DNA of 48,639 nucleotides, taken from the NCBI GenBank assembly GCA_009602735.1, contig WELA01000646.1, forward strand, positions 1 through 48,639, written 5' to 3'. The notes below the pieces were generated by a model that saw nothing but the letters and a program-made list of their open reading frames with translations, was not told the DNA's origin and did not search any database. The translations under genes were made by a program, and so were the position numbers. Origin of the DNA: Mesotaenium endlicherianum. Its lineage: Eukaryota. This document shows, piece by piece, positions 1,696-48,639 of the stretch (positions are counted from its first letter, which is position 1; each line of letters starts with the position of its first letter).

Positions 1696-2924
1696 AGGAC
1701 AGGAGCGTCTTACTTCCACACAGGCTTTCGCCCGAGTTGAGGGTTTACAGAATGAATAACTTTATAGTTTGTAGAAATCACGTCTAAGCAGCTTAACAGG
1801 CAATGCCTAGTTCAAAGAAAATCGCCCTTTAAGGCTTTTGCTTAACTTCCACAAGTCACAGCTTACAAAACTCTGAATTGCACATCTATGCTGGCCTGGT
1901 TTGAGTTCTTCGCTCAACACCGCGCCTTAACAGCTCTTCACGGCTTGGCTGAGCTCACTCAATGCTTCACTGAGGGCTCTACTTGTTAATACTACTCTTG
2001 CTTATCAGCAATTCGACAATTGAGACTTCTGAGAACTTGGAAACTAACACAGCACTCACCATTTTAAGTGACCCTCGCACGCTTGCGGCGTTTGACCCAA
2101 ATCTGTGCTAATCTCCTAACAGATTCTATCTTGCAGCTCTCTACTTTCTACCAGCGAGATCCTGTCTTGGGAACTCCTGAGGTCTAACCTTTCTATGATA
2201 CCCTTAGGAAGAAATCTTCCAGCGTCGGTAGAAGCGTGGCGCCCCCGCTCTTCTATGCCCTTGGGAACTCCTCTTCTTTGCGCTCCTTCTGCTTCTTCAG
2301 CTTCCTTTGACAACAATGCGAGCAAGAATGAGGCAGCTTCAGGCAAGACTCGTGCCTTTCACAGGCACCACACACTGTCCTCTCTCGAGAATGCCAGTGC
2401 TTAGTTACAGCGTTTAGCATGCATGCCGTCCTTACCCAACAGTTCTCACACAGCTTAGAAGTTGTCATTCAGCATGCATGCATGCATTGGGATTGTTGCG
2501 CGTGACCGCTTAGCCTTTCAGCTGACAATCACGCCTATGCGGCTGGCTGGCACCGTTTAGGGTGAACGCTCAATCCGTGACTAGTCATCTGAGGGTCTGG
2601 CCGAGGCGGCACACAACACCCTTTGCAACATCCCTGCTGTACTTGGCTTGGGTAGCCGATTGATCAGTACCTTTCTTGGTACTCGCTGGGCTGGCTCATT
2701 GCTGGTTCCATGCCCCTAGCCTTTCGGCTGACTACTTTGTCGTAATCCCTATCCAGTCCTGGATGTGGGTTTGATGTGTCGTGACCACTTTGACAGTGGT
2801 AACGACTTGAACATGACCGCTGACTCGGTCCTTTGGTCGGTGAGTCAATGTTGACTTCCCGTACCTGGGCGGCCATGACTTGCGCTGCGCGTGCGGCACC
2901 GTCAAGTGGATAGCAGTCGCGACA
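1696..2924 (-). repeat. Family A terminal repeat segment Y
   Basis: Begins TGTCGCGAC on the minus strand. 2664-2924 is homologous to 45838-46100, the 5' end of family A copy 2. Confidence 0.75.
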
Positions 2925-2926
2925 GC

Positions 2927-3218
2927 TGTCGTGCCTAACAGCGTCAAAAACCTGGCACGTGCGTGGCTTCTCAGCACGTGTGCCCTCGACTTGGTTGACG
3001 TGTCAGTGCATCGCTGCACGTGGGGATCGACCGGGTTGATCGTCCCTTGCACGTGTGTCGATGACAGACTGGTTAGGGTTCGACCCATTCCTGGTCTTCC
3101 TGCACTTGCATCATGCGGTGAGGCATCCCATACTCGGTGCTTCCCATGTTCAACCAGTTCCTCATTCAACACTTAGCAGAAATTTCGAGAAGATAGCTTA
3201 TCTTCAGTTTCCCTTACA
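2927..3218 (-). repeat. Family A terminal repeat segment X, inner copy (PPT-adjacent, U3-like)
   Basis: Starts TGTAAGGG immediately after the polypurine tract. Contains four CACGTG boxes. Confidence 0.9.
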
Positions 3219-3230
3219 CCCCTCCCTTTC
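3219..3230 (-). promoter_or_regulatory. Polypurine tract of family A
   Basis: GAAAGGGAGGGG directly abuts TGTAAGG, about 35 nt after the end of pol. Confidence 0.85.
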
Positions 3231-3264
3231 AGCTGAGGCGTCCCTGCCTTTCTGCTGAAAGCTT

Positions 3265-3672
3265 TTATTTTTTGTCCCTGTGGCTGGGGGTTTCGGGAAG
3301 GCAGTCACGACATTCCCACCATCCTGCCATAATCTCTTCTTCACCAATGCAGAAGGTGTGCCAACGGGCACCACACTAATCGCAAGTTACCATTGCTTCT
3401 TGAGCATCCAGCACTTTGCAGCTGGCACAAGGCGTGGCTGGCACCAATTCCTCGGGCATTGTCTTGATCGTAGGATCGATATTTGGCAAATGGCACAACA
3501 AACAGTTCTGCACGTCATCTCTCATGGTCTTACCATCAAAACCTTCCAATTCCAACACACCATTGTTGAACGCATGTTTCACGCGTAAGATCACTTCACC
3601 TGAACTGGTGTCAATGGTGGTCTTAGTCTGGCGCTTGCGGTAGACAAAGTCTCCTTCCTGGATCTGCGTCAT
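3265..3672 (-). pseudogene. Integrase C-terminal extension with PHD finger (one in-frame TAG)
   Basis: Reading through the stop at 3376-3378 gives CASCKVLDAQEAMVTCD*CGARWHTFCIGEEEIMAGWWECRDC, a C4-H-C3 PHD signature with WxCxxC. Confidence 0.85.
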
Positions 3673-3693
3673 TTGCAGGCGGTAGCTCCCATC

Positions 3694-5253
3694 TCACGTC
3701 TTGGCGTAACGCTGCGTGTCTCTTTTCTGTGCAATTTTCAGATTGTCCAGGGCAGCAGGCATTATGTGCTCAAATAACACCTTACGGCGCAACATGACCT
3801 TTAGCAGTTCATCAGGGTTGTCCAGGTCTTTCACCTGCTCAATCTCCTGCTTGATGCTGCTGGGCACAATTGGACTTCTTCCAAACAAAATTTGATAAGG
3901 CGAGTAATTTGCCAAAGCAGCTTGCTTGCTAAATCTATAACCCATAAGCAGCCATGGCAAGGCCAGATCCCAATCACGCTTATCATGCTTAAGGCAAAAT
4001 TTGCGCAAAGCAGACTTAATGGTTTGCACCATCCGTTCTGCCAGACCATTTGCTTGTGAGTGGTCTCTAGACGTAGTGCGATGGTCAATGAAGCATTTGT
4101 CCAGGAGTTTTTGAAAAGATCCTTGGAACTCAGACCCTTGGTCTGTCAGCACTTCTGCTGGGGCTCCATGACGTACAATCACACCATTGAGGAGCGCTTC
4201 CGCGGTCCCCAAGCTTTCCTTAGCATTTAGAGGCACCACCTCTATCCACTTAGAGAAATGCTCAATCACGACCATAATGTACTTGTTACCTCGCTTGGAC
4301 AGCGGTAGCTCACCTGCGAGATCGCAGCTCCACCGATATCCTAGGCCCGTAATTGGCAGAGGTTGTAGGTGCGGGTGTTGCTGCGTAAAACCAGCCTTGA
4401 CGCGATCGCAGCTTCTACAGGCCTTGATCACATCCTCACAGTGCTGCTTCATGCCCCTCCACCAGTAAGACAGCTCCAGAAGACTGTATGTCTTCTTAAC
4501 ACCATAGTGTCCAGTATTCTCATGCATTTCCTGCACCAGAGCTTGTCTTTTGTTGGGTTCTGGCACTAACTTATCCTGACCAGTTTCTTCAATCTTGAAG
4601 AGGTTATTGCATTTCCAGCAAAACTTTTTAGCCCGATGGCCTACCTGGTCCTTTTTTGTTGTCGACAATCCTTCTATATGGGTCCCCGTCTTCAACCAAT
4701 GCATAGTGGCTTGATCTTTCCAGATCTCTGGACTGAACAAGGGTAGGGGCTCAGCTTCTCCTGATGCTACCATTCTAGCCATTTCGGCCAAGCAGGCGGC
4801 CAATTCTGTGGGGCTGCTCGGGTCTTCGTCTTCTCGAGCCCCTGTTCTGTCGTCTGCAGATGGGTCCGGGTTCCTGCTGAGTCCATTAGCGTCGTTGTTG
4901 AGTATACCTGCTCGGTGTATCACCGTCATCTGGTACTCCTGGAGCTTGAGAGCCCAACGAGCGAGTTTACCAGTGAGGTCTCCATTCTTCATCAACCAGA
5001 GTAACGGCGAATGATCTGTGATCAGCGTGAAGGGCCTCCCCCATAGATATTCTCTAAAATGTGCAACAGCCCAGACCACTGCCAGTAGCTCTCCTTCGTA
5101 GGACGAGTAGTTGCTCTCTGCTTGGTTGTTAAAGCACAAGACATAGGCAATGACGTACTCCTCTCTAGGACTTTCGGCCTGAGTGAGTACTGTGCCAATT
5201 CCCACACGACTCCAGTCGGTGTGTAGATTGAACGGCTTGGAGTAGTCAGGTGT
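3694..5253 (-). pseudogene. pol: Family A RNase H and DDE integrase (frameshifted)
   Basis: RNase H motifs LHTDWS, NYSSYEGELLAVVWAV, ITDHSPL, LARWALKLQEY. Integrase HHCC (HENTGH...CRSC) and catalytic CDLAG, TDQGSEF, LAERMV. Confidence 0.95.
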
Positions 5254-6261
5254 TCACAAGACTGGGGCTGTTACCAGCCGCTCCTTGAGCTCATTCATGG
5301 CCTTCTCCTGGGCTTCTGTCCACACAAAAGGTACGTCATTTTTGAGGAGTTCTGTTAAGGGTTTAGCAATTTTGCTATAATCCTTCACAAACTTACAATA
5401 GTATCCGCTTAGCCCTAACAGAGCTTTCAGCTTAGACACATTTGTTGGTGCAGGTATCTTGTAAATGGTTTTAGTCTTTACAGCCTGAGGGGACATAGCA
5501 TTATTCCCAATCTCATGTCCTAGGTAAGGCACGTGTGCCTCAAAGAATCTGCACTTTCCAGGGTGCAGCCTCATCTGGAATTTCTCCAGGCGCTGGAACA
5601 CTTGCTCCAAGTGCTCGAGGTGCTCCTCTATGGACTTGCTGAACACCACTACGTCATCTATGTATGGTTTTGCAAAATCCAGCCCCTCCAGCACTTTATC
5701 CATAGTCCTCTGAAAGATGGCTGGGGCATTTTTCAGCCCAAACGGCATTACCGTCCATTGCCAAAGTTCCCTTTGGGCCCATAAAGCGGTCTTACCTTGA
5801 TCTTCTGTTTTCACAGGGTTCTGGTTGAACCCTTGGCGTAGGTCGATGATGCTGAACACCTTCCCGGTGGTAGCAATCGCAAAGATCCGCTCTAGTGTAG
5901 GCATCACATAGCTGTCTGGCTCCGTGTGAAGATTCAGTCGTCTGTAGTCTTCACACATACAAGTGGCTGTATAATTGCCATCCTTGTCCTTCTTGGCAAC
6001 TACTACCATGGGAGCTCCATGTATTGAGGTTGATTTCTCAATCATGCCGAGCTTATGCAGCTCCTAGCAAGTTTTCTCCACATAGTCCCATTCGGTCTGA
6101 CTGAGCTTATGCGGCCCAAGTCTGACTGGGTTATCAGTAGTTAGTGTGATCTTACACATACTGGCAGTGGATCTACCAATCTCCTCCTTAGTAAAAGCAA
6201 ACACCTTGCAAAGCTTCTTCATCAGCCTCCCTACTTTTGCTCTCTGTTGGGCTGAGACCAT
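5254..6261 (-). pseudogene. pol: Family A reverse transcriptase
   Basis: DYRRLN, IIDLRQGFNQ, VMPFGLKNAPAIFQR, YIDDVVVFS, YLGH. In-frame stop near 6064. Confidence 0.95.
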
Positions 6262-8479
6262 GTTTCCAATGGTAAAAACCTCAGCTGCTGGCTGCTTTTC
6301 CCCAACACAGGCATCCAGTAGTTGCTACTTCTTGGGTCTAGGTGGAGGCTTTTTGCCCTCATCCTGGCCTTCAGGCTTTTCTGCCTGATTGTTAGACGGT
6401 GGAGTGGCAGGCTTTGCAGCTTGGTCCTCCGCTGTCTCAAGCTTGGTGGCCTGCTTCTCAGGCCTTTTACCTTTTCCAATAGAACGTCACCTCTCTTGTG
6501 GCGTGGAGTAGGTCAGACGCCTCCGGATGGGCTGCTTGAAGAATCTTTCTTCATCGGCTGCAGTCCAGCTGGTCCCTGTTCCTCCTTCTTCACGTGGTGG
6601 GGGTGGGTTTGGCCACCCTGCTGGATCTGCTCAAAGGTCGATTGTGCAACCCCACTCGCGCTCAATGGTAGCTATGCGCGCAACGGTTGTGCCAAACTCC
6701 TCCCTGGCTGGTGGCGTAACCGTCCATGCTTGTGTCACAGTCTGCGATCTTTGAGCCGCAGCTAGTTGTGCGTATATAGCATTCTCTGCTGTCAAATGGC
6801 TTATGGTGCTTCTCAGCTCTACCAATTCCCTTTCAGACACTGCAGGTGTCCTAGGAGCTGACCATTCTTTCTCCCACATTTCTGTAGATGAGGGGCGCAC
6901 CATGGAAATGTGAATTCCCAATGCCATGGCTTTGCGAATTAAGCCATCCTCTCCCTCTCTCTGCAAAACTTCCAAGATAGGTCGCGGAGGAGAAACCGTG
7001 GTTTTTTTCAAAACTTCTTCTCTCTAAGCTGTTCCCCTGTACTTAAGATAACGCATCAGCATCCGCCTGAAAGGTGCATTCCATTCCCAGGCCACCTTTC
7101 TTGGTCTGCTTGCGCAACCGTGAGGATTTCCTTGTGTTGGTTCCACCTTAGCAGTGCAGGCAGCCACTTCCTGCGGTTGTTGTAGCTAATGTGGGGTATC
7201 TTCTCGTGCTGGAAAACTGGCGGTTGGAGTGCTGGATGTGGGCGACCTTAGATCGTTGTAAAGATCGGCCGGGCTGGGTCCTTCCATCATCAAGTGGTCG
7301 TTCACTCAATCATCCGTTCTGAGCTCTTGTAACTCCAACAGGTCCAGCTCTGGGGTAGGAAAACGTAGAATTTCTTCCCGAATCTCCTCTTCATTGGTGA
7401 CTGACGGGCAGGTCAAACCCTAGAAGGTCTGGCATCTCTGCCTCATCTTCAACTGATTTCCCCGCTCTCGTTGGTGGCGGTTCTCCTTCATTATCTGTGT
7501 TGAGCTTTGCCAAGTTGACGATGGCTGATTGCAGAGCGCTTGCCGCCTTAGCCACTTCCCTTTCCTTGTGTTGTCAAGCGTCTCCACCCAGCAGCTGCTC
7601 CATGATTTGCCTTGAAATGGATTCAGCTGTTTGACTGGCTGAACCCTGCTGTTGCCCCTTAGCTTGCGGCTCTGGGCTCATCAAGGCAGGTGTTGTAGAC
7701 AATTTCTTGTCCAACTCTTCCTGGCGTTCTTCAAATATCACTTCGAGACATATGGTCTTTGCAGACCCTCCAGAATCTCCTGAGTTCTGGCTACTCTCTT
7801 CAGCCCTTTCACCAAGATTGCACTGGCGTTCTTGCATTACTACTTGGTTTAAGCAGTATCCAGTATTTTCGGCCATAGGCCAGGAGTCTTCGTCTCAGAT
7901 TCTTCTGACATGTATTGTAACGACGCTTGCTCTGGTGAAGACGATAGACACTTTTGGTTAGATTCCCAGCTACTTGAGCATTCCTGCCAATAGTCTCCGC
8001 GCCCAGCTGCTCTTGGGGTGAGGTGGGTATCATACCTTGACCTGGTCTTTTTTGGAGTCTCTTCACGTCTTGATGTCGTGGCTACAAGATGTGAGCTCCC
8101 AAAAATCTAGCTGTGAATGGCGTTTCTCGCAGATGATGGGGTGCCATGCGTATCGTCTTCTACTCTTGGTAGCGGCACTGCCTGCTCACGCGCCTGATCC
8201 CTCATGGGTGTATCCTCTCTTTTTAGAGGTGCTTGTAATTCCTTGGTCCCGTTATCAATCCGGGCCAACAGATCCTGACATCTCATCAGTTTTGCCACTC
8301 TTTCTCCCCTGAATGCTCTGTCTACAGCGGCTTCCACTGCGTCTCTTTGCACTCAGTATTCTTCTTGTTGCTGATGTGCCGTTTTGATAGCCCTCTGATC
8401 AGATGTTGGCACCACATTGAACCCAATTGTCACTGGTTTTGGTCTTGGCATAGGCTTGTCAGTGAAGGTCAACTGTTGC

Positions 8480-8922
8480 CATGTCATGATTGTTTCCACC
8501 AACCAAGTCATAGAGTGCTGCCCGATCATGTTGCCGAAAATCTTTGCGGCTTCATAAGACCCTACAGCACCGGCTATATGCTGAGCTATGGTGTCAGGTA
8601 TTCCAAGGCATTTGCCCTTTTCCACCGCGGTAGGCTCTCTCCACACGGCGTCTCTTTCATATATGTCTTTGACCATTCTTGGTCCACCTCCTATGAAGGC
8701 TCGGCATCCTGGATATGCTGTGAAGGTTGGTAGTACCACTATTGGCTGGCCTGGTTCGTTGATGACACACTGTGGATAGGAATCCCTCCTGGTCACTGGT
8801 CTGGTATGCACCGCCAATTCCATTTCCACTGTCAATGCCGTTGGTGATTGCCGTGTAATGTCCTCCATTTCTCTCAGAACCTCCATAGACATGCCGTTGG
8901 TCCAAAATATCCTGGCCCTATG
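8480..8922 (-). pseudogene. C5-cytosine DNA methyltransferase, C-terminal half (motifs VIII-X), inside family A pol
   Basis: HRARIFWTN (motif VIII; DNMT3 has HRARYFWGN), REPTAVEKGKCLGIP (motif IX-like), AAKIFGNMI (motif X-like). Cut at 8922 by an LTR. Confidence 0.75.
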
Positions 8923-9636
8923 TGAAATGAATCGTCTTACCAAATAGGCGACTAATAATTAATAAAGATCATTATATCAGCAAGTAATCTTTATGGATTT
9001 TTTGTTAACTGATTAAACGGCAAAGGACAACACACTAGCTGTGAACAATACTTGTAAATCAAATGAGAGTAAACTAGCATCAATAATGCATTCAGTAAAC
9101 TCATACATAAGCAAGGTTAGAAGACAGTGCGTATCAATGGCTTCTCGCCTTGGATTCAGTTCTCTCTCAGTCAGCTGTACAAGAGAGTTGGCCTCGTTTT
9201 TGAATGCCGAACTCGAGAGCATTGCCTAGCATATGTACATGGAATGAGTTTACTGTTCAACGATCAGTGCGATGGCACCGCCTACCCGGGAGTTAACCAC
9301 GTTGGTAGGACCTTGGTTAACCAAATCCACCCCCATCTCCCATCATCCCAAATCGCCATCCGTCATAGGGATGTCATCTGGCCATTCATTTAGCATATCA
9401 CACCTAGACGCATATCGAGGCAGTTCGCTGCTACCGAGTACGGACGTCAGCTGGCTGTCAAAGAATGTGTTAGCAAGCTGACTTAAGCTGCAGCCTGCTG
9501 CATCCGGCTGAGTCATTAAACTGATACTAAATATAAAGTCCAGCAGCTGACTATCAACTAAAGTTCAGCAGGCTGAACTTAATTTACTATTACATTAAAA
9601 TGAATATTATATCTACTAATATACTGATTCATTACA
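8923..9636 (-). repeat. Family B 3' LTR
   Basis: TGAAATG...ATTACA on the plus strand. PPT (GGAGGGAT, minus) adjacent at 9637-9644. Confidence 0.95.
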
Positions 9637-9748
9637 ATCCCTCCAACTGTACTTGTTGTCGCCTCGACAACATTAAACTGCAAAAGTCTTTGGCCAGGAA
9701 ACTGAACCTGACCCGCCTCTTCCCGTGACTGCCCCTTCAGCGTTTTGC

Positions 9749-11421
9749 CTAGGGGGTTGTTCCTGGGGCTTCAGGATCAGGAGACCGAGATCTGGACCTA
9801 GATCTGGACAGCCCTCTAGGTCTGTCAGCTGGCCTTCTAAAAAACCCCGTTTGCTCTAAAGTTGGACCTCGAGGAGAACGAAGGATGGTAGCCTGCTCTT
9901 CACCCACTTGGGTGTTGATCCCCACATAGACAGGCATTCCAGTAGGATGCTGAAATACATTGGCTAGAGGTACATGCCCCTGAGCGGAGGGGGAGGCCGG
10001 CATACCTCTGGCCCACCCGCGTGTCCCTCTTCTGGCACCCCTGTCCTCTGGGGATTTCTGCCTGTGTCTGCTCCCCAGTACAGTTAGATCAGAATCTTCC
10101 CCTGCTTGGGCAGGTGGGGGGAGCGAGTGCGGGGTCCAGTTGCCTCCAAGACGGGGATCACGTTCCAAATGCCTGATCGTGGTTCTTTAGGAAGTGTTCC
10201 TGCCTGACCTTGGGTCTCCTGAGTACCAGCTGCTGATGCTTCTCTTCTGCCTTGTTCTTCTTCCTCATCCTCCTCATCCTCCTCCTCGGAGAGAGTAGGA
10301 GTCTCGTCCACTAAGTCGTCCTGCTCCCTAGTAGACATGGAGTAGTCTACCGACCTCCCTTTCTTAGGGCGCGCGGGGGGTTGCTTGGCCTTCAGCCTGT
10401 TGATATCTATCCGGCCTGCATTCTTTGCCCATTTGACGAAGGCATGCTTTCCCTTTGAGAAATAGTCTCTTCCCCTCCTCCTATGCTCCTTGGTCTCTGC
10501 ATTCATATTGCTCAGGCAACCATTCAGCCTGGGGTCCCAAGGGGCAATGTGAGGTGGTAGGATGAGATAGCCGTCTAGGCCATAGTGGAAGTCATCCGGT
10601 TGGGCTCGGTCACCTTCCTGCTTCTTATTTGTGACGATCATCCACCTCCAGTCTGTTGGCTGCTGGTAATACTGGGGTCCGTGCTCAGCCTTCCTCATTT
10701 TACACGGGAACCAGTGGGGAGAGAACATCTGCTGTCTTGCTTCCCGGGCCAAGTACTCCCAGCTCCTTCTCTCAACTTCATTGTAAGCTGGCAACAGTGT
10801 GAGGTAGAATACCGTGTCCTTAAAGCTATTGGGCCGCATGCTCACCATCCGGATGAGTCTCTAATCTCCCACTATTCCCGGTATGGGGACCGGCTTGTTT
10901 TCTAAATCATCTGCAAGGTACCGGGCCTGCTCTGCTGTATAGCCCACCATCTTGGCATAATCTTCGTAGAGGACCACACCAGTGTGTGTCTCGATGTACC
11001 TATCCAGTGTTGCAGCTCCTTCCCTCTGTAGCAGTGTCGTCTGTTCCAGCTTGTTGATCTCCTGGGCTGCCAGCAATGCTTTCTTCAGGTTATCAAAGTT
11101 TTGGCCACCCACTACAGTACACCTGTAAGTGGCCAAGCTCTTCTGTCTGTCCGCTTCAATCTTTTTCCTTTTCTCCTCCTCGCCGCTGCCGCTTCTTCTT
11201 GTTGTTTCTTCTCTCTCGCCTCCTCAGCTTTTCTGAGGTTTTTCCGCTTCCTGATCCTTCTTCCTCTGTGCCTCTTCTGCCGCCTCTTGTTGTCTGCGGA
11301 CCCTTTCTTGTTCTCCTCTGGTGAGGGACGTCGCCGCCAGCTCCTTTTGGTATTGCTCCATTGTCCTCCTGGCTTCTTCTGCCTTGCGCTTTCTGTCCTC
11401 CTTTTGTGTAGTGGGAGCCAT
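9749..11421 (-). pseudogene. Family B extra ORF downstream of pol (about 550 aa when two frameshifts and one TAG are repaired), function unknown
   Basis: Joins track ORFs 11224-11445, 11112-11471, 10861-11136, 10084-10848 and 9749-10168. Colinear with 22377-23663, with many synonymous differences. Confidence 0.8.
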
Positions 11422-11422
11422 C

Positions 11423-11528
11423 CTGTACATGTAACCAGGGCACAAGTTAGTAGGATATGGACGTTTGTCATAGGGATTGCAGGCAGGAAGTATGTCCGTA
11501 TTAGTATGGTGGATTTGCTCCTCTTTAC
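11423..11528 (-). other. Predicted 106-nt spliceosomal intron just upstream of the extra-ORF ATG
   Basis: AAG|GTAAAG donor, TACTAAC branch point (11446-11452) and TACAG|G-ATG acceptor. Same length and signals at 22270-22375. Confidence 0.65.
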
Positions 11529-11769
11529 CTTACAGGGTGATTGCTAGAAGTTGACGTAGTTGCGGTGCGCTAAACATAAACGTATGAATGTGTTTTAAGG
11601 TGAGTTAAGTGATGTGTTGCTGTGCGAGGCCCTTTTCCCTTCAGCTCAAGGTGCTTTCACGTAACTGTCCCTTTATCGCTCTCGCTCACTAACTGTCATA
11701 TACTTTTCCCCTCCAACTTAAATGAAGACACGACCGCCTGTCACCTTCCCGTGTCAACTGAAATGACAG

Positions 11770-14700
11770 TTATGGAGGGGCTCCAGTCGCCCGAAGGTGG
11801 AACCGTTTCAACGCCCCTTTGGCATTGGTCAAATGGTCCTTAAATTCCCAAGTGTCCCCAGAGGCATCGTAACCCTTCCATCGAATGAGGTATTTCATGA
11901 CATATTTAGACGATCAACGGACCGAGCGCGCGTCTAAAATCTCCTCAACCTCATATTCGTCAGAGTTGCCGTCCCTGACAGCGGGGACCGGTTCCGGTTG
12001 GACTGGGAACCAACCTGTGAACAGTATATCACCTTTGATGTATGGTTCCAGGAAGGAGACATTAAAGACCGGGTGACCCTTGTATTCGGCTGACACGTTT
12101 AGTTTGTAAGCGTTCTGACCGACACGACGCACCACCGAACATGGACCGACCCAGACAAGGCCAAGCTTTTTCTTGACCACACCAGGGAGGTACAGGTGCT
12201 GAGAATGCAGTTTGACTAGATTGCCTTTAGAAAATGTCAGCTCTCGACGGTGTTGATTAGCGTATTTTTGTTGGTTTTGTTGGGCTTTGTGCAGGTTTTG
12301 TTGGACTTCTGACAGGGTGTCAGCAAACTCCTGAGTTAACTGGAGGGAGACGGGATTGTCAATACCTTCAGGGTCAGTTAAAGACTCCCCCAGTACATCT
12401 AAAGGAGACTTAGGGACTCTACTCAGGCTGAGTTCAAAAGGAGTCTTGCCCGTTGACGCGTGCACCGCAATGTTGATCGCAAACTGAATTTGAGGCAACA
12501 GGTCATCCCAATTATCTTGTTTTTGGTTAATATATGCTCTCAGCACCTCCTGCAGAACTCGGTTAGTTCTTTCAGTCTGTCCATCAGTGTGAGGGTGGTT
12601 AGCTGTGCTAAGCAGCTGTTTGACTCCCATTAACCCCATTAAAGCTCTCCAAACTTAGAGGTAAATTTTGAGTCTCTGTCTGAGATGATATCAGAGGGAA
12701 GCCCATGTTGGCATACTACATGGTTGTAGAACTGTCTCGCTGTTTTGAGTGCAGTCACTTTGACAGTTGTGGGGATAAAATTGACCATCTTTGTCAGTTT
12801 ATCCACGACTACCAGTATCGAATCATGCCCATTGGCAGTTTTTGGTAGTGTGACCACCCAGTCCAGGGATATAGTTTCCCAGCGTCCAGCTGGAATGGGG
12901 AGTGGTTGCAAGAGACCTCCCGGTGGTGTGTGCCTAGACTTATTTTTTTGACACTGATCACAGGACTTTACATATTTCAAGACCTCCTGAGGCAACCCCT
13001 CCGAATGATAATGTTTCGCCAGTTTGCCAACTGTTTTGGCCTGCCCCAAATGCCCACCCAGTAAACTGTCATGTGCTTGACTCAATAAAAGGGACCTTAT
13101 TTCCAAGTTATTAGGAATGACCAGCTTCAGCCTGCCTGAAGTGATTTCTGTCACCCAGACCCCTCCCTTATGCTTATACCCGAGTGCAGTAGCACGACAC
13201 ACACCAGTAGTGGGGCTGGGCTCAAATGTTGGGTCAGAAAGGTAGGCTTTCCTAAGTTGTTCAAGAAAGGACTTTTTCACCTCTAGTGAAGTGAGTGCAC
13301 ACAGGACTTTATCTACAGCATGCTGACTAAAGTTGCTTTCTTGCAAGTCAGGTCTTCTAGAGAGTGCATCAGCAAGATTCAACTTCCCTGGTTTGTAGTC
13401 GATCTGGACTTGGAATTGCTCCAGCATCTTGGTCCAGCGGTTCTCCCTCCTCGACAGCTTGGACTTCTTCTCAAAGTGAGTCAGAGCTAGATGATCTGTA
13501 ATCACCTTAAAAGCTTTACCATGTAAGTATGCTCTCCACTGTTTGAGTACATGAATGATAGCTAGCAGCTCTTTATCATGCACTGAGTAATTAATCTCCG
13601 CTGGATTAAATTTCATAGACTCATACAACACAGGATGCCACTCCTGCCGTACCTTACCATCCTTTGTGGTTTTGTCAGCAGGCTGCAACAAAATAGCACC
13701 CATGGCAAAGTCAGAGGCATCAGTAACCACCTGCACCGGTTTGCTGGGGTCATACACGGCTAGCACTGGGGCAGAACAAAGGGCATCTTTAAGGGTCTGG
13801 AAGGCAGCCTGCTGCTCTTCCCCCCACGCATACCCTATGTCGTTCTTAGTAAGGTCAGTCGGTTTACTGGCCTTTGTAGAATAATTCTCAATAAATCTCC
13901 TATAGTAGTTAGCCAACCCGAGGAAGGATCTAACTTCAGAGACAGACTGTGATGCTGGCCAGTCCCTTATGGTCTGGACTCTCTTAGGATCCACACTGAT
14001 GCCGTCTTTACTGACAACATGGCCTAAGAATTCAGTACTTTCTTTAAAGAAATCACACTTGCTCATTTTTGCATATAAGTGATTTTTTCTCAGAGTGTCA
14101 AGGACTGTCTTTAAGTGTCTAGCAGGGTGAGCTTCATCCTTAGAGAAAATTAAAATATCTTCCAGGAAAACTTGCACAAACTTATCCAAGTAAGGCCTGA
14201 AAATGTCATTCATAGCACCCATGAAGGTCGCAGGAGCATTAGTCAGTCCAAATGGCATCACGTTGAACTCATAGTGTCCATAACGTGTGCGGAAGGCAAT
14301 CTTGTGTTCATCCCCCTCAGCAATTCTGATTTGATGATAACCACTCTTGAGATCTATCTTATTGAACACCTTAGCACCAGACAGGGTATCAAGCAAGTCC
14401 TTGATTCTGGGTAAAGCATACTTGTTCTTTATTGTTATTCTGTTCAGGGCTCTGTAATCCACTCACATCCGAATACCACCATCCTTTTTCTTAACAAATA
14501 GGATGGGTGCGCCGTAAGGTGATTTACTGGGAGAAATATAACCACTTTCCTCAAGCTCCGCAATCTGTGTTTTCAACTCCTCGCTCTCCACATAAGAGAA
14601 GTCATAAGTGCGTTGCCAGGGTGGCTGACTCCCAGGTAATAAATCAATCCTATGATCTACTTCTCTCTTATGGGGTAGTCCTGGAGGCATATTAAACACA

Positions 14701-15455
14701 TCCGTGTACTGAGCATCAATTTTCGCAGCAGTAGGGTGCTCCGGAGGGCTTACCTTTTTCTCCACCACTTCTTCGGGTTGAGGAGGTACGTCTCTTATCA
14801 GCAGACAGAACATTCTGTCTTCCTTCTGGTTCCAGCTTTTGACGAACTCCAATGCATTCAGCAACTTGCATCCTTCTGGAAGCCTCTTCTTTTCCTTCAT
14901 TTGCCATCCACACAGGACAAGAGGAAGAGCACTGGTGGGTGCCAAGTCAGTCTGCCCATCACTGGCTCCTCTCACTTTAACTGTACCTCTGCTCCAACAC
15001 ACTTCAGCTTGATGTCTATTAAGCCAGGACCTGCCTAGCACGAGATCATAAAAGCCAGTGTTGAGTACCTCAAATGTAAGCGTTTCAGTTAGAACTGCAA
15101 TGCCAGAACCTAACTGGACCTCAATAGGCTTGGTTATAACTCCTCCGGGGATACTTGAGGCATCTCCAAGGAATATTTTTCTATTCCCTTGGGTGACAGT
15201 AGGCAGCCTTAGCCGCTTAACTAAGTCCTTGTGGATAAAAGTATGTGACGCCCCTCCGTCAACAAATGCCCTCACCTTCCTACCTGCAATCATGCAATGC
15301 AGTAGGATAGGGGGGACTGTCTTTTCCTGACTTTCGCATTGTTCTCCTGACGTAGCAAAGAAATGTTGGACATCAGGTGGAACAAGAGCATCCAGACTGT
15401 GCACTCTCTGGACGTCTATATTGCTGATGGTCTCCTTTATCTGGTTGTCAGGCAT
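11770..15455 (-). pseudogene. pol: Family B pol: protease, RT, RNase H, integrase, chromodomain
   Basis: [34 protein letters not shown] (catalytic D mutated); [13 protein letters not shown]...GH...CDQC, SDRD, DGQTER; chromodomain EYEVEEILD...YLIRWKGYDASGDTWE. Stops at 14463 and 11914, frameshift near 12639. Confidence 0.95.
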
Positions 15456-15930
15456 GCATAGTCTAGCAAATGCAGCAGCGTGAAATTGGCATCTACTTGC
15501 TGCGTAGTGTCCTCAACAGTCCCTCTCGCTCCTGCAGCAGCAATTCCTGCCGCATTCAGCCGGTCACGTATTTGACCTAGGGGTACATTGAATTGTACAG
15601 CAGGAGGTGGGTTCAGGATATTGGCCCTGGATGCCATAAGTTCTTCAACAGTGCGCTTGTCAGCTGGCTGTTCTTCCCTCCTTTCTGTATCTTCAGCGGC
15701 CTTTGCTAATTGTTCAGTTCTAATCTGGCTCTCTCCTCCTCAGCTTGCTGTGCTGCAACTGCGGCAATAACACTGGCCTCATCTGCAGCCTCTCTAGGTG
15801 CAGTATCTGCCACTAGTTCAGAATAGGTACGGGTTCCCGCTACATGGCTTTTCGCCTGGTTTTTGACATTCTCGCTATCCTGGTTCTCCATGTCTCGGGT
15901 GTTGCTAGTTTGAGATCTTGTCCTTACCAT
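15437..15930 (-). pseudogene. gag: Family B gag N-terminus (capsid and zinc-knuckle region deleted)
   Basis: ATG about 20 nt after the PBS (MVRTRSQ). Homologous to 17010-17250, then jumps to the equivalent of about 18350. Confidence 0.75.
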
Positions 15931-15950
15931 ACAAAGAAGACTGTAATAAT

Positions 15951-15963
15951 TGCTCCGATACCA
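15951..15963 (-). promoter_or_regulatory. Primer binding site, tRNA-iMet type
   Basis: TGGTATCGGAGCA, 1 nt after the LTR end. Confidence 0.9.
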
Positions 15964-15964
15964 C

Positions 15965-16746
15965 TGAAATGAATCGTCTTACCAAATAGGCGATTAATAA
16001 TTAATAAAAATCTTTATATCAGGAAGTAATCTTTATGGATTTTTCGTTAACTGATTAAACGGCAAAGGACAACACACTAGCAGTGAACAATACTCGTAAA
16101 TCAAATGCGAGTAAACTAGCATCAATAATGCATTCAGTAAACTCATGCATAAGCAAGGTTAGAAGACAGTGCGTATCAATGGCTTCTCGCCTTGGATTCA
16201 GTTCTCTCTCAGTCAGCTGTACAAGAGAGTTGGCCTCGTTTTTGAATGCCGAACTCGAGAGCATTGCCTAGCATATGTACATGGAATGAGTTTACTGTTC
16301 AACGATCAGTGCGATGGCACCGCCTACCCGGGAGTTAACCACGTTGGTAGGACCTCGGTTAACCAAATCCACCGCCATCTCCCATCATCCCGAATCGCCA
16401 TCCATCATAGGGATGTCATTTGGCCATTCATCTAGCATACCACACTTAGATGCATATCGAGGCAGTTTGCTGCTACCGAGTACAGAAGTCAGCTGGCTGT
16501 TAAAGAATGTGTCAGCAAGCTGACTTAAGCTGACTTCAGCTTGCTGCATCCGGCTGAGTCATTAAACTGATACTAAATATAAACTCCAGCACACTGACTA
16601 TTAACTAAAGTTCAGCAGGCTGAATTATGTAAATTACATTTAAATGAATATTACTTCTACTAATATACTGATTCATTACAGGCTGAACTTAATTTACAAT
16701 TACATTTAAATGAATATTACATCTACTAATATACTGATTCATTACA
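15965..16746 (-). repeat. Family B 5' LTR with a 66-bp terminal tandem duplication (16681-16746)
   Basis: Near-identical to 8923-9636 apart from the extra unit. Confidence 0.95.
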
Positions 16747-17009
16747 ATGACTCAGCTGAGAGCAGCAGGCTGAAGTCAACTTAGGTCAGCTTGCTGATAC
16801 ATTGTTTGACAGCCAGCTGACTTCTGTACTCGGTAGCAGCGATTTGCCTAGATATGCATCTAAGTGTGGTATGCTAGATGAATGGCCAAATGACATCCTT
16901 AGCATGGATGGCGATTCGGGATGATGGGAGATGGCGGTGGATTTGGTTAACGGAGGTCCTACCAACGTGGTTAACTCCCAAGTAGGCAATGCCGTTGCAC
17001 TTGCCGTTG

Positions 17010-18256
17010 CTCGCTGCTGAGGGTGCAGAAAGGAGGGACGGACAGTCCGCGGTCGAGCGCACTGTCGAAGGATTTATGGCAGCGAGAGCCAATGTCCTGA
17101 AGCCACCTCCTGCTGTACAACTCAACGTTCCTCTAGGTCAAATTCGTGACCGGCTGAATGCGGCAAGAATTGCTGCTGTAGGAGCAAAAGGACTGTTGAG
17201 GACACCTCTCAGCAAGTGGATGCCACTGCTGCTGCTGCATTTGCTGGACTTTCACCTCAGAGTGTAGATTTGGGAGCACTATTTGTGCAAATGCAATTGC
17301 AAATGGCGAGCATGTATCAGTCCCAACAGGAGGATAAACGAATCATAATGTCCTTGCTGACAAAGACCAATTGGGTTCTCAAACCACTGGTGGTCGTGGT
17401 AGAGGACCTAGTAAGCCTAAGCCAAAACCTCCTCAAAACTATGATCCTGAGGGAAACAAAAAGTATTACCTGATCAAGTTTCTCGCTGATGTTGAGCAGT
17501 GGCTGGAGAACTACCCAGAACTGCAGGATTACGAGAAGGTCAGGCACACTGGTGCTTTACTAAACGGCAGTGCAGCAGACTGGTGGTTGTATTGGAAAGG
17601 AGGGCGTAAGGCTTAGCAACTCGGTGACCCTACTTGAGTAGAGTTTGTCGAGAAAGCGCATGAGAAGTTTGATGTCATTAATCAGCAGGAGAAAGCTATC
17701 TTTGCAATGATCTCCATGACACTGAAGCAGACCACTTCAGATCCTGAGTTTGCTCAGAAGTTCCAGGAGAACATGATGAAGCAGCCAGACTTGCCAGAGC
17801 GGTATAGGATAGCATACTTCAGGTATGGCTTGAAATCCGAAGTCTCTGGTCATTTTGCTGAAAAGAAATATGAGAAACTGGCTGACTTGATACAGGCCGC
17901 TGATGCGTGGGATCAGCAGCAGTTTAATCACAAGAGCCAGAGTAATGCTTTGGTGTCTAAGATTGTCAAATAGCCCCACGATTCCTACAAAGCAATTGAA
18001 GGAGACTGGGGCTAAGGACCATCAGGGTGATGAGTAAAAGTATGAATATACTGCTATGCAACCTAGAGAGAGAGGTGGTTACTCTCCAGGTGGCTATGGA
18101 AGAGGTGGTGGTAGGACTAAGCCGAGGCCAGCCTCAGCAAAATCTATTTGCTTCCATTGCCAGCAGCTGGGTCACTACAGAGAACAGTGTTCAATCAAGC
18201 ACCTTCCAAAGGTCGAGAGAAAAGACCAGCCATTAAAAGACAGCAACAGTCAGTAA
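17010..18256 (+). pseudogene. gag: Family B gag (capsid region and CCHC zinc knuckle)
   Basis: PKPPQNYD, LLNGSAADWW, FRYGLKSEV, CFHCQQLGHYREQC. Several stops and frameshifts. Confidence 0.9.
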
Positions 18257-21990: not shown

Positions 21991-22376
21991 ATTGTCGTTT
22001 CATTTGACATAGGACGATGACAGGAGGTGTTGTCTCCATTTGAGTTGGAGGGGAAATGTGCTAGTAAATGACAGGTAGTGTGCGAGAGAGGGACAGTTAT
22101 TGACAGCATAGTCACAGATGGGACACCCACGCCTACATTCAGCAAAGTTGGCGGAATGAAGAAGGGACTTGCACATCAACACATTATTTAACTTACCCTG
22201 CACACACATTCATTTGTTTATTTTTCATCGCACTGCAGCTACGTCTACTCCTCGTAACTACCCTGTAAGGTTAACGGGAACAAACCTACTATAACAATAC
22301 AAACTTGCTTCTCTTCCTGCAACTCCGGTGACAAGATCAAGATCCTACTAACTTGTGCCTTGGTGGCATGTGCAGG

Positions 22377-23663
22377 ATGGCTCCCACCACACAAAAGGAA
22401 GACAAAAAGCGCAAGGTAGAAGAAGCCAGGAGGACAATGGAGCAATACCAGAAAGAGCTGGCGGCGACGTCCCTCACCAAAAGAGAACAAGAAAGGGTCC
22501 GCAAACAACAAGAGGCGGCAGAGGAAGCACAAAGGAAGAAGGAGCAAGAGGCCAAAAATCTTAGGAAAGCTGAGGAGGAGAGACAGAAGAAACAACAAGA
22601 AGAAGCGGTGGCAGCAGAGGAGGAGAGAAGGAAGAAGGCTGAAGCTGACAAGCAGAAGAGCCTGGCCACTTACAGGATATACGATGGTGGGTGGCCAAAC
22701 CTTTGATAACCTGAAGGAAGCATTGCTGGCAGCCCAGGATATCAACAAGCTGGAACAGGAAACAATGTTACAGAGAGAAGGAGCTGAGATCCTAGACAGG
22801 TACATTGAGACACACATGGGTGTGGTCCTCTACAAAGATTATGCCAAAATGGTGGGGTATACAGCAGAGCAGGCACGATTTCTGGCAGATGACTCGGAAG
22901 ATAAGCCGGTACCAGTGCCTGGCATAGTGGGGAATCAGAGACTCATCAGGATGGTCAGCATGCAGCCCAATAGCTTTAAGGATGCGATATTCTACCTCTC
23001 ACTACTTCCAGCTTACAATGAAGTTGAGAGGAGGAGCTGGGAGTACTTGGCCAGGGAAGCAGGGCAGCAGATGTTCTTCCCCCACAGATTCTCTTGTAAG
23101 CTGAAAAAGGCCGAGCATGGACCACAGTACTACCAGCAGCCCACAAATTGGAGGTGGATGACCGTCACTAACAGGAAGCAGGAGCGTGACCAAGCCCATC
23201 CAGATGACTTCCATAATAGGCTGGACGGCTACCTCATCCTACCACCTCACATTGCCCCTTGGGACCCCAAGCTAAATGGATGCCTGAGTAATATGAATGC
23301 TGAGACCAAGGAGCACAGGAGGAGGGGGAGAAATTACTTCTTGAAGAAGAAGCATGCCTTTGACAAATGGACGAAGAATGCAGGCCGGATAGATATCAGC
23401 AGGCTGAGGCGTGGCAACCTCCAGCTCGTCCTAAGAAAGAGCGGTTAGTGGATTTTTCTATGCCTACCCGGGAGCAGGATGACTTAGTGGACGAGACCCC
23501 TACCCTTTCAGAGGAGGAAGATGAGGAGGATGAAGAAGAAGAACAAGGCAGAGGAGAAGCATCAGGAGCTGGTACTCAGGAGATCCAAGGGCAGGCAGAA
23601 GCAGGGGCTCTTAGGGCGCGAAGATCAGGTGTATTCACTGTCACTAATGATCCCCACAGCTAG
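22377..23663 (+). pseudogene. Family B extra ORF, copy 2 (shorter, different C-terminus)
   Basis: MAPTTQKEDKKRK... coiled coil, conserved core and acidic EEEDEEDEEEE tract. Two frameshifts. Confidence 0.8.
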
Positions 23664-23766
23664 GCAACAGTGCTGAAACACGGGGGGGTTAGTTCTGTTA
23701 GTTTCCTTACCAGCTAATTTTGCAATTCAATGTTGTCGAGGCGACAACAATTTAAGTTCGAGGGAT

Positions 23767-38980: not shown

Positions 38981-39000
38981 AATATAACATGCAAACTAGT

Positions 39001-39015
39001 CCTGCTCCGATACCA
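39001..39015 (-). promoter_or_regulatory. Primer binding site, tRNA-iMet type
   Basis: TGGTATCGGAGCAGG, 2 nt after the 5' LTR. Confidence 0.9.
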
Positions 39016-39017
39016 GA

Positions 39018-46100: not shown

Positions 46101-47720
46101 ATGAATCGTCTTACCAAATAGGCGATTAATTCTTAATAAAGATCTTTATATCAGCAAGTAATTTTTATGGATTTTTCGTTAACTGATTAAACGGCAAAGG
46201 ACAACACACTAGCAGTGAACAATACTCGTAAACCAAATGCGAGTAAACTAGCATCAATAATGCATTCAGTAAACTCATACATAAGCAAGGTTAGAAGACA
46301 GTGCGTATCAATGGCTTCTCGCCTTGGATTCAGTTCTCTCTCAGTCAGCCGTACAAGAGAGTTGGCCTCGTTTCCGAATGCCGAACTCGAGAGCAATGCC
46401 TAGCATATGTACATGGAATGAGTTTACTGTTCAACGGTCAGTGCGATGGCACCGCCTACCCGGGAGTTAATCACGTTGGTAGGACCTCGGTTAACCAGAT
46501 CCACTGCCATCTCCCATCATCCCGAATCGCCATCCGTCATAGGGATGTCATCTGGCCATTCATCTAGCATACCACACTTAGATGCATATCAAGGCAGTTC
46601 GCTGCTACCGAGTACGGAAGTCAGCTGGCTGTCAAAGAATGTGTCAGCAAGCTGACTTAAGCTGACTTCAGCCTGCTGCATCCGGCTGAGTCATTAAACT
46701 GATACTAAATATAAAGTCCAGCAGACTGACTATTAACTAAAGTTGAGCAGGCTAAACTTAATCTACTATTACATTCAAATGAATATTATATCTACTAATA
46801 TACTGATTCATTACAGGCTAAACTTGATTTACTATTACATTTAAATGAATATTATATCTACTAATATACTGATTCATTACAATCCCTCCAACTGAACTTG
46901 TTGTCGCCTCGACAACATTAAACTGCAAAAGTCTTTGGCCAGGAAACTGAACCTCACCCGCCTCTCCCGGTGACTGCCCCTTCAGCGTTTTGCTTAAAGG
47001 GTTGTTCCTGGGACTTCAGGATCAGGAGACCAAGATCGGGACCTAGATCTGGACAGCCCTCTAGGTCTGTCAGCTGGCCTTCTCAAGAACCCCGTTTGCT
47101 CTAAAGTTGGACCTCGAGGAGAACGAAGGATGGTAGCCTGCTCTTCACCCACTTGGGTGTTGATCCCCACGTAGACAGGCATTCCAGTAGGATGCTGAAA
47201 TACATTGGCTAGAGGTACATGCCCCTGAGCGGAGGGGGAGGCCGGCATACCTCTGGCCCACCCGCGTGTCTCTCTTCTGGCACCCCTCTCCTCTGGGGAT
47301 TTCTGCCTGTGTCTGCTGCCCAGTACAGTCAGATCAGCTTCTTCCCCTGCTTGGGCAGGTGGGCTGGGGGAGCAAGTGCGGGCCAGTTGCCTCCAAGACG
47401 GGGATCACGTTCCAAATACCTGATCGTGGTTCTTTAGGAAGTGCCCCTGCCTGCCCCTGGGTCTCCGGAGTACCAGCTGCTGATGCTTCTCCTCTGCCTT
47501 GTTCTTCTTCCTCATCCTCCTCATCCTCCTCCTTGGAGAGAGTAGGAGTCTCGTCCACTAAGTCGTCCCGCTCCTTAGTAGACATGGAGTAGTCTACCGA
47601 CCTCCCTTTCTTAGGGCGCGCTGGGGGTTGCTTGGCCTTTAGCCTGCTGATATCTATCCGGCCTGCATTCTTTGCCCATTTGACAAAGGCATGCTTTCCC
47701 TTAGAGAAGTAGTCTCTTCC
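46101..47720 (-). mobile_element. Family B copy 3: 3' LTR (46101-46881, missing its terminal 4 nt, with the 66-bp duplication), PPT and 3' part of the extra ORF
   Basis: Homologous to 8927-10473. Confidence 0.95.
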
Positions 47721-48639
47721 TGAAATGAATCGACTTACCAAATAGGCGATTAACAATTAATAAAGATCTTTATATCAGCAAGTAATCTTTATGGTATTTC
47801 CGTTCACTCGTTAAACGGCAAAGGACAATACACTAGCAGGGATTACTACTCGTCAGTCAAATGAGAGTAAACTAGCATCAATAATGCAAATCAATAAACT
47901 CATACATAAGCAAGGTTAGAAGACAGTGCGTATCAATGGCTTCTCGCCTTGGATTCAGATCTCTCTCAGTAAGCTGTACAAGAGAGTTGGCCTCGTTTCC
48001 GAATGCCGAACTCGAGAGCAATGCCTAGCATATGTACATGGAATGAGTTTACTGTTCAACGGTCAGTGCGATGGCACCGCCTACCCGGGAGTTAACCACG
48101 TTGGTAGGACCTCGGTTAACCAAATCCACCGCCATCTCCCATCATCCCGAATAGCCATCCATCATAGGGATGTCATCTGGCTATTCATCTAGCATATCGC
48201 ACTTAGATGCATATCAAGGCAGTTCGCTGCTACCGAGTACGGAAGTCAGCTTGCTGTCAAAGAATGTGTCAGCAAGCTGACTTATATGGACTTTCAGCCT
48301 GCTGCTTTCCACTGAGTCAGCAAACTGATAATTATGTAAAGTCCAGCAGACTGACTATTAAGTAAAGTTCAGCAAACTGACTATTAACTAAAGTCTAGCA
48401 AACTGACTAATAACTAAAGGTCAGCAGGCTGAACTTAATTAACTATTATATTTAAATGAATATTATATCTACTAATATACTGATTCATTACAATCCCTCC
48501 AACTTAACTTGTTGTCGCCTCGACAACATTAAACTGCAAAAGCTTTAAATAAAGAAACTGACCCTGACCAGCCTCCCTTACTGACTGCCTCTTCAGCGTG
48601 TCACCTCAAGGGGTTGTTCCTGGGGCTTCAGGGTCAGGA
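47721..48639 (-). mobile_element. Family B copy 4: 3' LTR (47721-48492), PPT and 3' internal region running off the window, nested in copy 3
   Basis: Intact TGAAATG end interrupts the extra ORF of copy 3. Short internal tandem units at about 48350-48427. Confidence 0.95.

What the first reader, a model, noticed from the sequence alone, without database searches (positions are those of the whole stretch)
9749..11421. Conserved orphan ORF in the env position of a chromovirus
Seen: a sense-strand ORF between chromodomain and PPT, readable in copies 1-3 (only its last codons fall in the window for copy 4). Lesions in copies 1 and 2 fall at different places, so the consensus is continuous. Differences are heavily third-position synonymous (e.g. 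GCC CGG TAC CTT vs GCA CGA TTT CTG; GTC CCC ATA CCG GGA vs GTA CCA GTG CCT GGC). The protein has a charged coiled coil, a roughly 230-aa aromatic-rich core, a basic patch, an acidic tract and an RS-rich tail. No signal peptide or transmembrane helix is evident, so it is not a classical Env. Inference: a nuclear accessory factor, possibly anti-silencing. Extra ORFs are familiar in Athila/Tat/Ogre/SIRE but atypical for chromoviruses.
Basis: partly seen in the sequence, partly recalled or inferred. Interest (0 to 1): 0.75.

Follow-up and report, generated by a model that had tools for sequence, protein, structure and literature searches.

The report
Spliced orphan gene in algal chromovirus
A chromodomain-bearing jumping gene, likely from a green alga, carries an extra gene with no known relatives that selection has conserved as strongly as its core enzymes; the gene is predicted to be made from a spliced message and would likely act in the nucleus to help the element express itself.

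Summary
The extra ORF is real. It lies in sense between the chromodomain and the PPT of a Ty3/gypsy chromovirus family with four copies in the window. Copy 1 vs copy 2 dN/dS is 0.15 (0.10-0.22) in the 240-aa core, against 0.24-0.36 in pol and about 1 in spacer and LTR. New here: a perfect branch point TACTAAC plus YAG|G sits directly before the ATG in both copies that can be read there (2 of only 3 TACTAAC in 48.6 kb), so it is likely expressed like env, from a spliced subgenomic RNA; no junction read was seen. It has no membrane segment, so it is not Env. No homologue turned up in Pfam, PDB, 1.84 billion representatives or 81 related loci; folds failed. Corrections: no copy is open throughout, none reads into the RS tail (copy 2 lacks it), and 3' sense extra ORFs are known in Tekay chromoviruses (18%), though not in algal Chlamyvir. 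Most likely a nuclear trans-acting booster of its own family, chromatin-level (35%) or RNA-level (25%); function is untested. New variant of a known kind.

The parts
9749..11421 (-). Extra ORF, copy 1 (about 557 codons in span; broken by frameshifts near 11250, 11181 and 10116-10125 and a stop at 10861-10863)
11143..11421 (-). N-terminal charged helix region with basic clusters (RKRK)
   Evidence: dN/dS 0.20 (0.04-0.77) on the first 54 codons
10393..11118 (-). Conserved core, about 240 aa, aromatic-rich, ending in an Arg/Lys patch; 83% identical to copy 2
   Evidence: dN/dS 0.15; identity; no homologue
10198..10392 (-). Basic patch (RPKK) followed by acidic tract
   Evidence: dN/dS 0.09 (0.03-0.20)
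9749..10114 (-). Pro/Gly/Arg-rich tail with a short SR run; out of frame with the core in copies 1 and 3, absent in copy 2
11423..11452 (-). Predicted 3' splice site: branch point TACTAAC (11452-11446) and acceptor AG (11424-11423), one base before the ATG
   Evidence: not confirmed by reads
11422..11769 (-). Non-coding spacer between pol stop and ORF; evolves without codon bias
   Evidence: dN/dS 0.62-0.97 in three sense frames, all not significant
11797..11955 (-). Chromodomain at the end of pol (one in-frame stop in copy 1)
   Evidence: PF00385 E 3.2e-11
11770..15512 (-). pol of copy 1: protease, RT, RNase H, integrase, chromodomain (several stops and frameshifts)
15920..15929 (-). Candidate splice donor (G|GTAAGG at 15927) between PBS and gag start; a second candidate lies in U5 at 15982
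   Evidence: inference only
15952..15963 (-). Primer binding site, tRNA-Met type (identity of the tRNA recalled, not tested)
15965..16746 (-). 5' LTR of copy 1, with a 66-bp unit in two copies at the U3 start
8923..9636 (-). 3' LTR of copy 1 (94% identical to the 5' LTR); no coding signal
9638..9648 (-). Polypurine tract
22346..22375 (+). Branch point TACTAAC and acceptor AG in copy 2
22377..23663 (+). Extra ORF, copy 2 (two frameshifts; core 22687-23406 open; RS tail missing)
46994..47720 (-). Extra ORF, copy 3, C-terminal part; interrupted by copy 4
48606..48639 (-). Last codons and stop of the extra ORF, copy 4

Best explanation
This is a third gene of a chromovirus retrotransposon, kept by purifying selection, that is likely translated from a spliced subgenomic RNA and would likely act in the nucleus as a trans-acting factor raising its own family's transcription against host silencing. 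Shown: position, selection, presence in all four copies, absence of a membrane segment, conserved branch point and acceptor sequence before the ATG. Inferred: (1) a transcript from the 5' LTR is spliced from a donor near the PBS to the acceptor at 11423, removing gag-pol (about 80%); (2) the protein is nuclear, from its basic clusters (about 60%); (3) the aromatic core with its Arg/Lys patch binds element DNA, possibly the short variable repeats in U3, while the acidic tract engages histones, by analogy with VANC and the plant mobile domain / Transposase_28 cargo of Ogre and Retand (about 35% overall).
For: Selection: dN/dS 0.15 core, 0.09 basic+acidic, against 0.36 and 0.24 in pol and no signal in spacer or LTR; copy 1 vs 3 gives 0.22 (0.07-0.66); 10 of the 15 differences listed inside the ORF for laid contigs and reads are synonymous, 11 of 15 at third positions (these are from the 40 rows shown of 169). 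Splicing: TACTAAC occurs 3 times on both strands of the window; two lie 31 nt before this ATG with the first AG giving YAG|GATG; 2 of 20000 resampled spacers gave such an arrangement; the third lies in a host-like GT-AG stretch. Precedent: ATHILA ORF2 is made from a spliced subgenomic RNA (PMC7197481, passages). Family-wide: summed contig depth over most ORF bins is of the same order as over integrase (36k-442k vs 308k-709k; not a copy number). Silencing context: CpG observed/expected 0.49 and 0.40 in copies 1 and 2 vs 0.71 in the flank; a neighbouring Ty3 family carries a C5 DNA methyltransferase. Variable U3 repeats: 66 bp x2, 46 bp x1.9, 26 bp x4.3. Known green-lineage cargo is of this type: PF10536 in Ogre, PF04195 in Retand (PMC6317226 supplement); VANC is structurally related to MAIN (PMC13547354 section 10).
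Against: No sequence link to PF10536, PF04195 or any chromatin domain: Pfam at E<=10 gave only sub-threshold, inconsistent hits (HsdM_N E 0.018, Obc1_C E 0.004). Only 2 of the 6 conserved Transposase_28 positions named in PMC11963269 match exactly, one more is similar. No splice junction was listed in the 5 RNA runs laid, and ORF coverage is near zero, so neither splicing nor an anti-silencing effect is seen. The donor at 15927 would put an out-of-frame ATG just before the ORF's ATG. Every copy here is broken, so selection acted in the past.
Confidence: 0.35

Rival explanations
1. A Rev/Rex-like RNA regulator: made early from the spliced RNA, it would bind the unspliced genomic RNA through its Arg-rich patch and use its SR tail to damp splicing or promote export, so that gag-pol RNA reaches the cytoplasm.
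For: Strong consensus acceptor that the genomic RNA must escape; HRRRGR patch, RPKK and an SR run; the tail's stop is kept as TAG/TAA/TGA. The retroviral analogy is recalled, and is raised for plant extra ORFs in PMC7264820 (parts 1-2 of 3 read).
Against: The SR run is only about 10 residues, has a Trp in copy 3 and is missing in copy 2; tail selection is not significant (0.48); no RNA-binding domain found.
Confidence: 0.25
2. A particle or pre-integration-complex cofactor (nucleic-acid chaperone or nuclear import adaptor) that works with Gag and integrase.
For: Long charged helix plus several basic clusters; a spliced RNA would allow Gag-like amounts; this role is proposed for plant extra ORFs in PMC7264820.
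Against: No capsid or nucleocapsid similarity; the other chromovirus in the same window (33606-39937) has no room for such a gene.
Confidence: 0.15
3. A captured and diverged host gene, possibly an enzyme, whose parent is missing from the databases.
For: Sense orientation and no introns fit transduction; the host's own proteome seems absent from the collections (best full-length pol relatives only about 50% identical); no genome could be searched.
Against: 0 hits at E<=0.001 among 1.84 billion representatives, although Chara, Closterium and Haematococcus proteins are in the underlying collection; no abundant RNA at 85% identity or more.
Confidence: 0.15
4. An Env-like or cell-to-cell movement protein.
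For: Env position, sense strand, splice acceptor.
Against: No hydrophobic segment (maximum 0.78), charged N-terminus, 2-3 Cys in the core; no Pfam envelope or movement-protein hit.
Confidence: 0.05
5. Not a gene: a neutral spacer or the remnant of a nested element.
For: All copies are broken; almost no RNA.
Against: dN/dS 0.15, p 3e-19, only in this frame and its antisense shadow; pol in the same copies is broken as well; same position in four copies; no inverted ends among the repeats listed.
Confidence: 0.02

Closest known systems
ATHILA ORF2 and Bagy-2 env-like genes (sense extra ORF between pol and 3' LTR)
   Same: Position, orientation and likely expression from a spliced subgenomic RNA (PMC7197481 passages; PMC7264820).
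   Different: Those are non-chromovirus elements, some with membrane segments; no PF03078 hit and no hydrophobic segment here.
Tekay chromoviruses with 3' forward extra ORFs
   Same: Chromovirus with a sense extra ORF in the 3' region: 18% of 782 elements (PMC6317226 supplement).
   Different: Tekay is a seed-plant clade; this element has an aromatic-cage-type chromodomain and distant, partly algal pol relatives; the Tekay ORF sequences could not be compared (supplement too large).
Chlamyvir / Tcn1 chromoviruses of algae and non-seed plants
   Same: CHD chromodomain with cage aromatics, tRNA-Met-type PBS, 7.8 kb size range.
   Different: No extra ORF is listed for Chlamyvir (44) or Tcn1 (1500); clade membership was not tested by a tree.
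Ogre plant mobile domain (PF10536), Retand Transposase_28 (PF04195) and VANC anti-silencing proteins
   Same: Element-borne accessory genes with a folded domain, long helices and disordered parts, thought to act on DNA or chromatin.
   Different: Mostly antisense in Ogre and Retand; no Pfam match here, 2 of 6 marker residues; VANC belongs to DNA transposons.
Retroviral Rev/Rex-type regulators (recalled)
   Same: Spliced message, Arg-rich patch, predicted nuclear.
   Different: Those are about 100-190 aa (recalled); this is about 555 aa with a 240-aa conserved core; no sequence link.

Membership tests
Ty3/gypsy chromovirus | Domain order protease, RT, RNase H, integrase | tested here: met
Ty3/gypsy chromovirus | Chromodomain at the integrase C-terminus | tested here: met
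   PF00385 E 3.2e-11 in copy 1 (above cut-off), E 0.0047 on a frameshifted piece of copy 2
Ty3/gypsy chromovirus | TG...CA LTRs, PBS and PPT | tested here: met
Chlamyvir clade | RT-RH-INT groups with Chlamyvir references | not testable with these tools
   no labelled references at hand; best full-length relatives about 50% identical and mostly unnamed
Chlamyvir clade | No extra ORF | tested here: not met
Env / env-like protein | Sense ORF between pol and 3' LTR | tested here: met
Env / env-like protein | Expressed from a spliced subgenomic RNA | tested here: inconclusive
   acceptor motif conserved; no junction listed in 5 RNA runs with near-zero coverage
Env / env-like protein | Signal peptide and transmembrane helix | tested here: not met
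   maximum 19-residue hydropathy 0.78; charged N-terminus
Transposase_28 (PF04195) / plant mobile domain (PF10536) | Pfam profile match | tested here: not met
   not listed at E<=10 for 10 pieces of the ORF (HMMER filters drop most hits above E 0.1)
Transposase_28 (PF04195) / plant mobile domain (PF10536) | Conserved G21, P25, L34, P46, N47, F55 | tested here: not met
   anchored on PN without gaps: P and N match, Y for F, three others differ
Transposase_28 (PF04195) / plant mobile domain (PF10536) | PMD/VANC fold | tested here: inconclusive
   models had pLDDT 36, pTM 0.21; fold searches uninformative
VANC-type anti-silencing factor | Sequence-specific binding to own element and loss of methylation in trans | not testable with these tools
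   needs bench work
Rev/Rex-type regulator | Binds a cis element in unspliced RNA and promotes its export | not testable with these tools
   only sequence motifs seen

The most novel reading that the evidence does not exclude
A very abundant algal chromovirus has evolved a retrovirus-like third gene, expressed by splicing at the env position but encoding a nuclear regulator of a new protein family: either an anti-silencing factor independent of VANC, or the first Rev/Rex-like RNA regulator in an LTR retrotransposon of the green lineage, and a cause of the family's expansion.
Probability: 0.3. Interest if true: 0.8.

Novelty: new variant of a known kind. Interest (0 to 1): 0.5.

Why it matters
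The function of extra ORFs in green-lineage LTR retrotransposons is an open question (PMC7264820, PMC11963269), and the REXdb survey doubts that the variable ones have any (PMC6317226). Here one is under selection at least as strong as pol, has a defined expression signal and sits in a family that is very abundant in its host. That gives sharp tests: one splice junction, one protein, a DNA-versus-RNA binding question. It also extends env-position genes to a likely algal chromovirus, a group for which none was listed. If it is an anti-silencing or Rev-like factor, it would be a new way for retrotransposons to beat host control.

Tried and rejected
Homology, all blank for the 240-aa core: word-index search, longer proteins 0 of 1704 candidates at E<=0.001, similar length 0 of 435 at E<=0.1; phmmer over 1,835,955,588 representatives 0 hits; ESM Atlas twice, no usable hit; PDB by sequence best E 0.48 and by profile 0.42; PHROGs best E 0.11, NCBIfam none; pattern scans of metagenome and viral contigs, 0 of 43 and 0 of 1 candidates confirmed. 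Shorter proteins were not searched in the word index, and the N-terminal helix and tail were searched only in Pfam, the tail also in PHROGs and NCBIfam, and both in the 81 loci. Position-guided search: 81 loci with related pol (38-56% identity) gave no match to the core (best tblastn E 0.44; best hmmsearch E 1.9 among 5686 pieces); 29 of them had 1.8 kb or more after integrase, 7 of these had a sense ORF of 200 aa or more, one locus was read and held gag and protease of a neighbour, six were not annotated. AlphaFold with 1 and 2 sequences failed (pLDDT 35.6, 35.7); Foldseek on the second model found nothing at E<=0.001 in PDB or BFVD, which means nothing at this confidence. A recalled likeness to Transposase_28 was tested and not met. 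A protein-like frame in the LTR was rejected: three stops shared by all copies that cover them, no third-position excess in any sense frame over six LTRs (one search had slipped frame at a gap; one antisense frame gave 0.30 and was not reproduced). A TAA/TAG-as-Gln code was considered and dropped, since a 933-aa pol frame is open under the standard code. No RNA holder was listed by the run index. A junction of RNA reads at 15866 is also in a DNA-like contig, so it was not read as splicing. No whole genome is held. Seven paper searches listed no description of this gene; subscription journals are mostly not covered, and REXdb files 1 and 3 were too large to read and may bear on whether any algal element has an extra ORF. 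Earlier scan findings: none.

Full report
Setting. The window is a cluster of LTR retrotransposons around a GC-rich host-like stretch. Self-comparison shows four copies of one family: copy 1 at 8923-16746 (-), copy 2 at 16746-24533 (+), copy 3 at 46100-47720 (-) and copy 4 from 47721 to the window end (-). The family has protease, RT, RNase H and integrase in Ty3 order, a C-terminal chromodomain (E 3.2e-11), TG...CA LTRs, a tRNA-Met-type PBS (tRNA identity recalled) and a short PPT: it is a chromovirus. Full-length pol relatives reach only about 50% identity; most are unnamed, the named ones include Closterium, Chara, Haematococcus and seed plants. With the methyltransferase-bearing neighbour this points to a green alga, likely a streptophyte; the host was not established and no genome is held.

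The observation. After the pol stop (11770) and a 348-nt spacer, a coding region runs from ATG 11421 to a stop at 9749, 113 nt before the LTR. It is broken in every copy: four lesions in copy 1, two frameshifts and a 380-nt loss in copy 2, truncation by copy 4 and one frameshift in copy 3. For the tail this is weaker: copy 2 lacks it and copies 1 and 3 both shift frame at the same junction, by different indels. The tail is still likely part of the gene, because its stop codon is TAG, TAA and TGA at the same position in three copies.

Selection. Pairwise codon counts between copies 1 and 2 give dN/dS 0.15 (0.10-0.22; 241 codons; differences by codon position 26/18/64) for the core, 0.09 for the basic and acidic part, 0.20 for the first 54 codons, against 0.36 for RT-RNase H and 0.24 for the integrase end. 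The other sense frames give 0.97 and 1.54, the spacer 0.62-0.97, and six LTRs show no third-position excess. Copies 1 and 3 give 0.22 for the core end and acidic part, and 0.48 (not significant) for the tail. These values include neutral decay since insertion (37 differences in 707 LTR columns), so they likely understate selection. Of the 15 differences that fall in the ORF among the 40 rows shown (of 169) when contigs and reads were laid on copy 1, 10 are synonymous. In one DNA-type run 5192 contigs were laid on this 2.5-kb stretch, with summed depth over the ORF of the same order as over integrase, apart from dips at the acidic repeat and the spacer; the tool warns that this is no copy number, but it shows that the gene is a regular part of a very abundant family.

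How it is expressed. The ORF is not in frame with pol and lies 5 kb from the LTR promoter. Both readable copies carry TACTAAC 31 nt before the ATG, and the first AG after it gives YAG|GATG. TACTAAC occurs only three times in the window; the third lies in a host-like GT-AG stretch; 2 of 20000 resampled spacers produced such a site. Candidate donors lie at 15927, between PBS and gag start, and at 15982 in U5. This is the env-type strategy, reported for ATHILA ORF2 (PMC7197481, passages). It is an inference: 5 of the 9 raw RNA runs listed were laid, 6-24% of each was read, coverage of the ORF was zero in two polyA runs and mostly 0-3 over the core in the others, and no junction was among the rows shown. 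An upstream out-of-frame ATG would come with the first donor, which counts against that donor.

What the protein is. A charged helix of about 90 residues, a 240-residue core (helical start, aromatic-rich remainder, Arg/Lys patch at its end), RPKK, an acidic tract, and a Pro/Gly/Arg tail with a short SR run. No hydrophobic segment exceeds 0.78, so it is not an envelope protein. All homology searches with the core were blank, also within 81 loci of related elements. Two AlphaFold runs failed (pLDDT 36) and fold searches on such a model are uninformative. A recalled likeness to Transposase_28 around a PN motif was tested and not met.

Mechanism. I commit to a nuclear trans-acting factor that raises the family's own expression at the chromatin level (35%). 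The basis is indirect: basic clusters and an acidic tract; CpG depletion of the copies (0.40-0.49 vs 0.71 in the flank); variable short repeats in U3 as possible targets; and the fact that the named cargo domains of plant Ty3 elements are the plant mobile domain and Transposase_28 (PMC6317226 supplement), with VANC structurally related to MAIN (PMC13547354 section 10). The close rival (25%) is a Rev/Rex-like regulator of unspliced RNA, suggested by the strong acceptor, the Arg patch and the SR run, but weakened by the loss of the tail in copy 2. A particle cofactor (15%), a captured host gene (15%) and an Env-like role (5%) follow. That the gene is real is about 97% certain; that it is spliced about 80%.

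Comparison and novelty. Sense extra ORFs between pol and the 3' LTR are a known kind (PMC7264820, parts 1-2 of 3 read; PMC11963269, passages, section 11 part 1 and section 12). They are not foreign to chromoviruses: 18% of Tekay elements have one, while none is listed for Chlamyvir, Tcn1, Reina, Galadriel or CRM (PMC6317226, passages, section 9, two supplements). Seven literature searches listed no description of this gene; a Penium genome preprint (10.1101/835561, passages) held nothing relevant; two REXdb files could not be read. So: a new protein family in a known architecture, in a lineage where the architecture was not listed, with measured selection and a defined splice signal. New variant of a known kind; interest 0.5.

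Noticed in passing
window 1425-8922 (-) and 41587-46099 (-): Two copies of a second Ty3/gypsy family carry a C5 cytosine methyltransferase (PF00145 E 2.4e-14 at 43402-44484) between gag/protease and RT, with split repeats at the ends (1425-1695 = 2949-3218; 2664-2924 = 45838-46100). This resembles KnitGypsy-Dnmt3 of Klebsormidium nitens (PMC5890265, passages) and points to a streptophyte alga as host.
   Followed up: partly
window 33606-39937 (-): A compact, younger chromovirus (LTRs 96.7% identical) with gag, pol and chromodomain, one stop in integrase and no extra ORF; same PBS as the family studied.
   Followed up: partly
window 15460 (-) vs 17250-18350 (+): Copy 1 lacks about 1.1 kb of gag that copy 2 has; copy 2 lacks the end of its 5' LTR, the PBS and the leader. 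The two sit head to head at 16746.
   Followed up: partly
window 47720/47721: Copy 4 is inserted inside the extra ORF of copy 3; copies 1 and 3 both sit inside the methyltransferase-bearing family: nested insertion.
   Followed up: partly
copy 1 vs copy 2: Synonymous divergence rises along the element: 0.22 in RT-RNase H, 0.40 in integrase, 0.55 in the ORF core, 0.82 in the acidic part, about 0.13 in the LTR; suggests mosaic subfamilies.
   Followed up: no
window 11632-12567: In three RNA runs (X9, X10, X15) first mates over the integrase end and chromodomain lie almost only on the - strand, which in common stranded libraries would mean RNA antisense to the element; low depth.
   Followed up: no
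window 9640-10400: Run X13 covers the 3' half of the ORF at depth 2-14 on both mate orientations, more than the core (0-3); many reads run on into other sequence, so they may come from a few truncated loci.
   Followed up: no
window 48316-48426, 46748-46881, 23776-23863, 16616-16746: U3 starts with short tandem units that differ between copies (26 bp x4.3, 66 bp x2, 46 bp x1.9).
   Followed up: partly
window 26900-27480 (-), 28926-28990 (-): GC-rich host-like exon with two hydrophobic segments next to long GT and CT repeats, and a short GT-AG stretch with a TACTAAC branch point; probably parts of a host gene.
   Followed up: no
window 30032-30398 and 32943-33304: Two copies (66% identical) of an unidentified repeat in the host-like region.
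   Followed up: no
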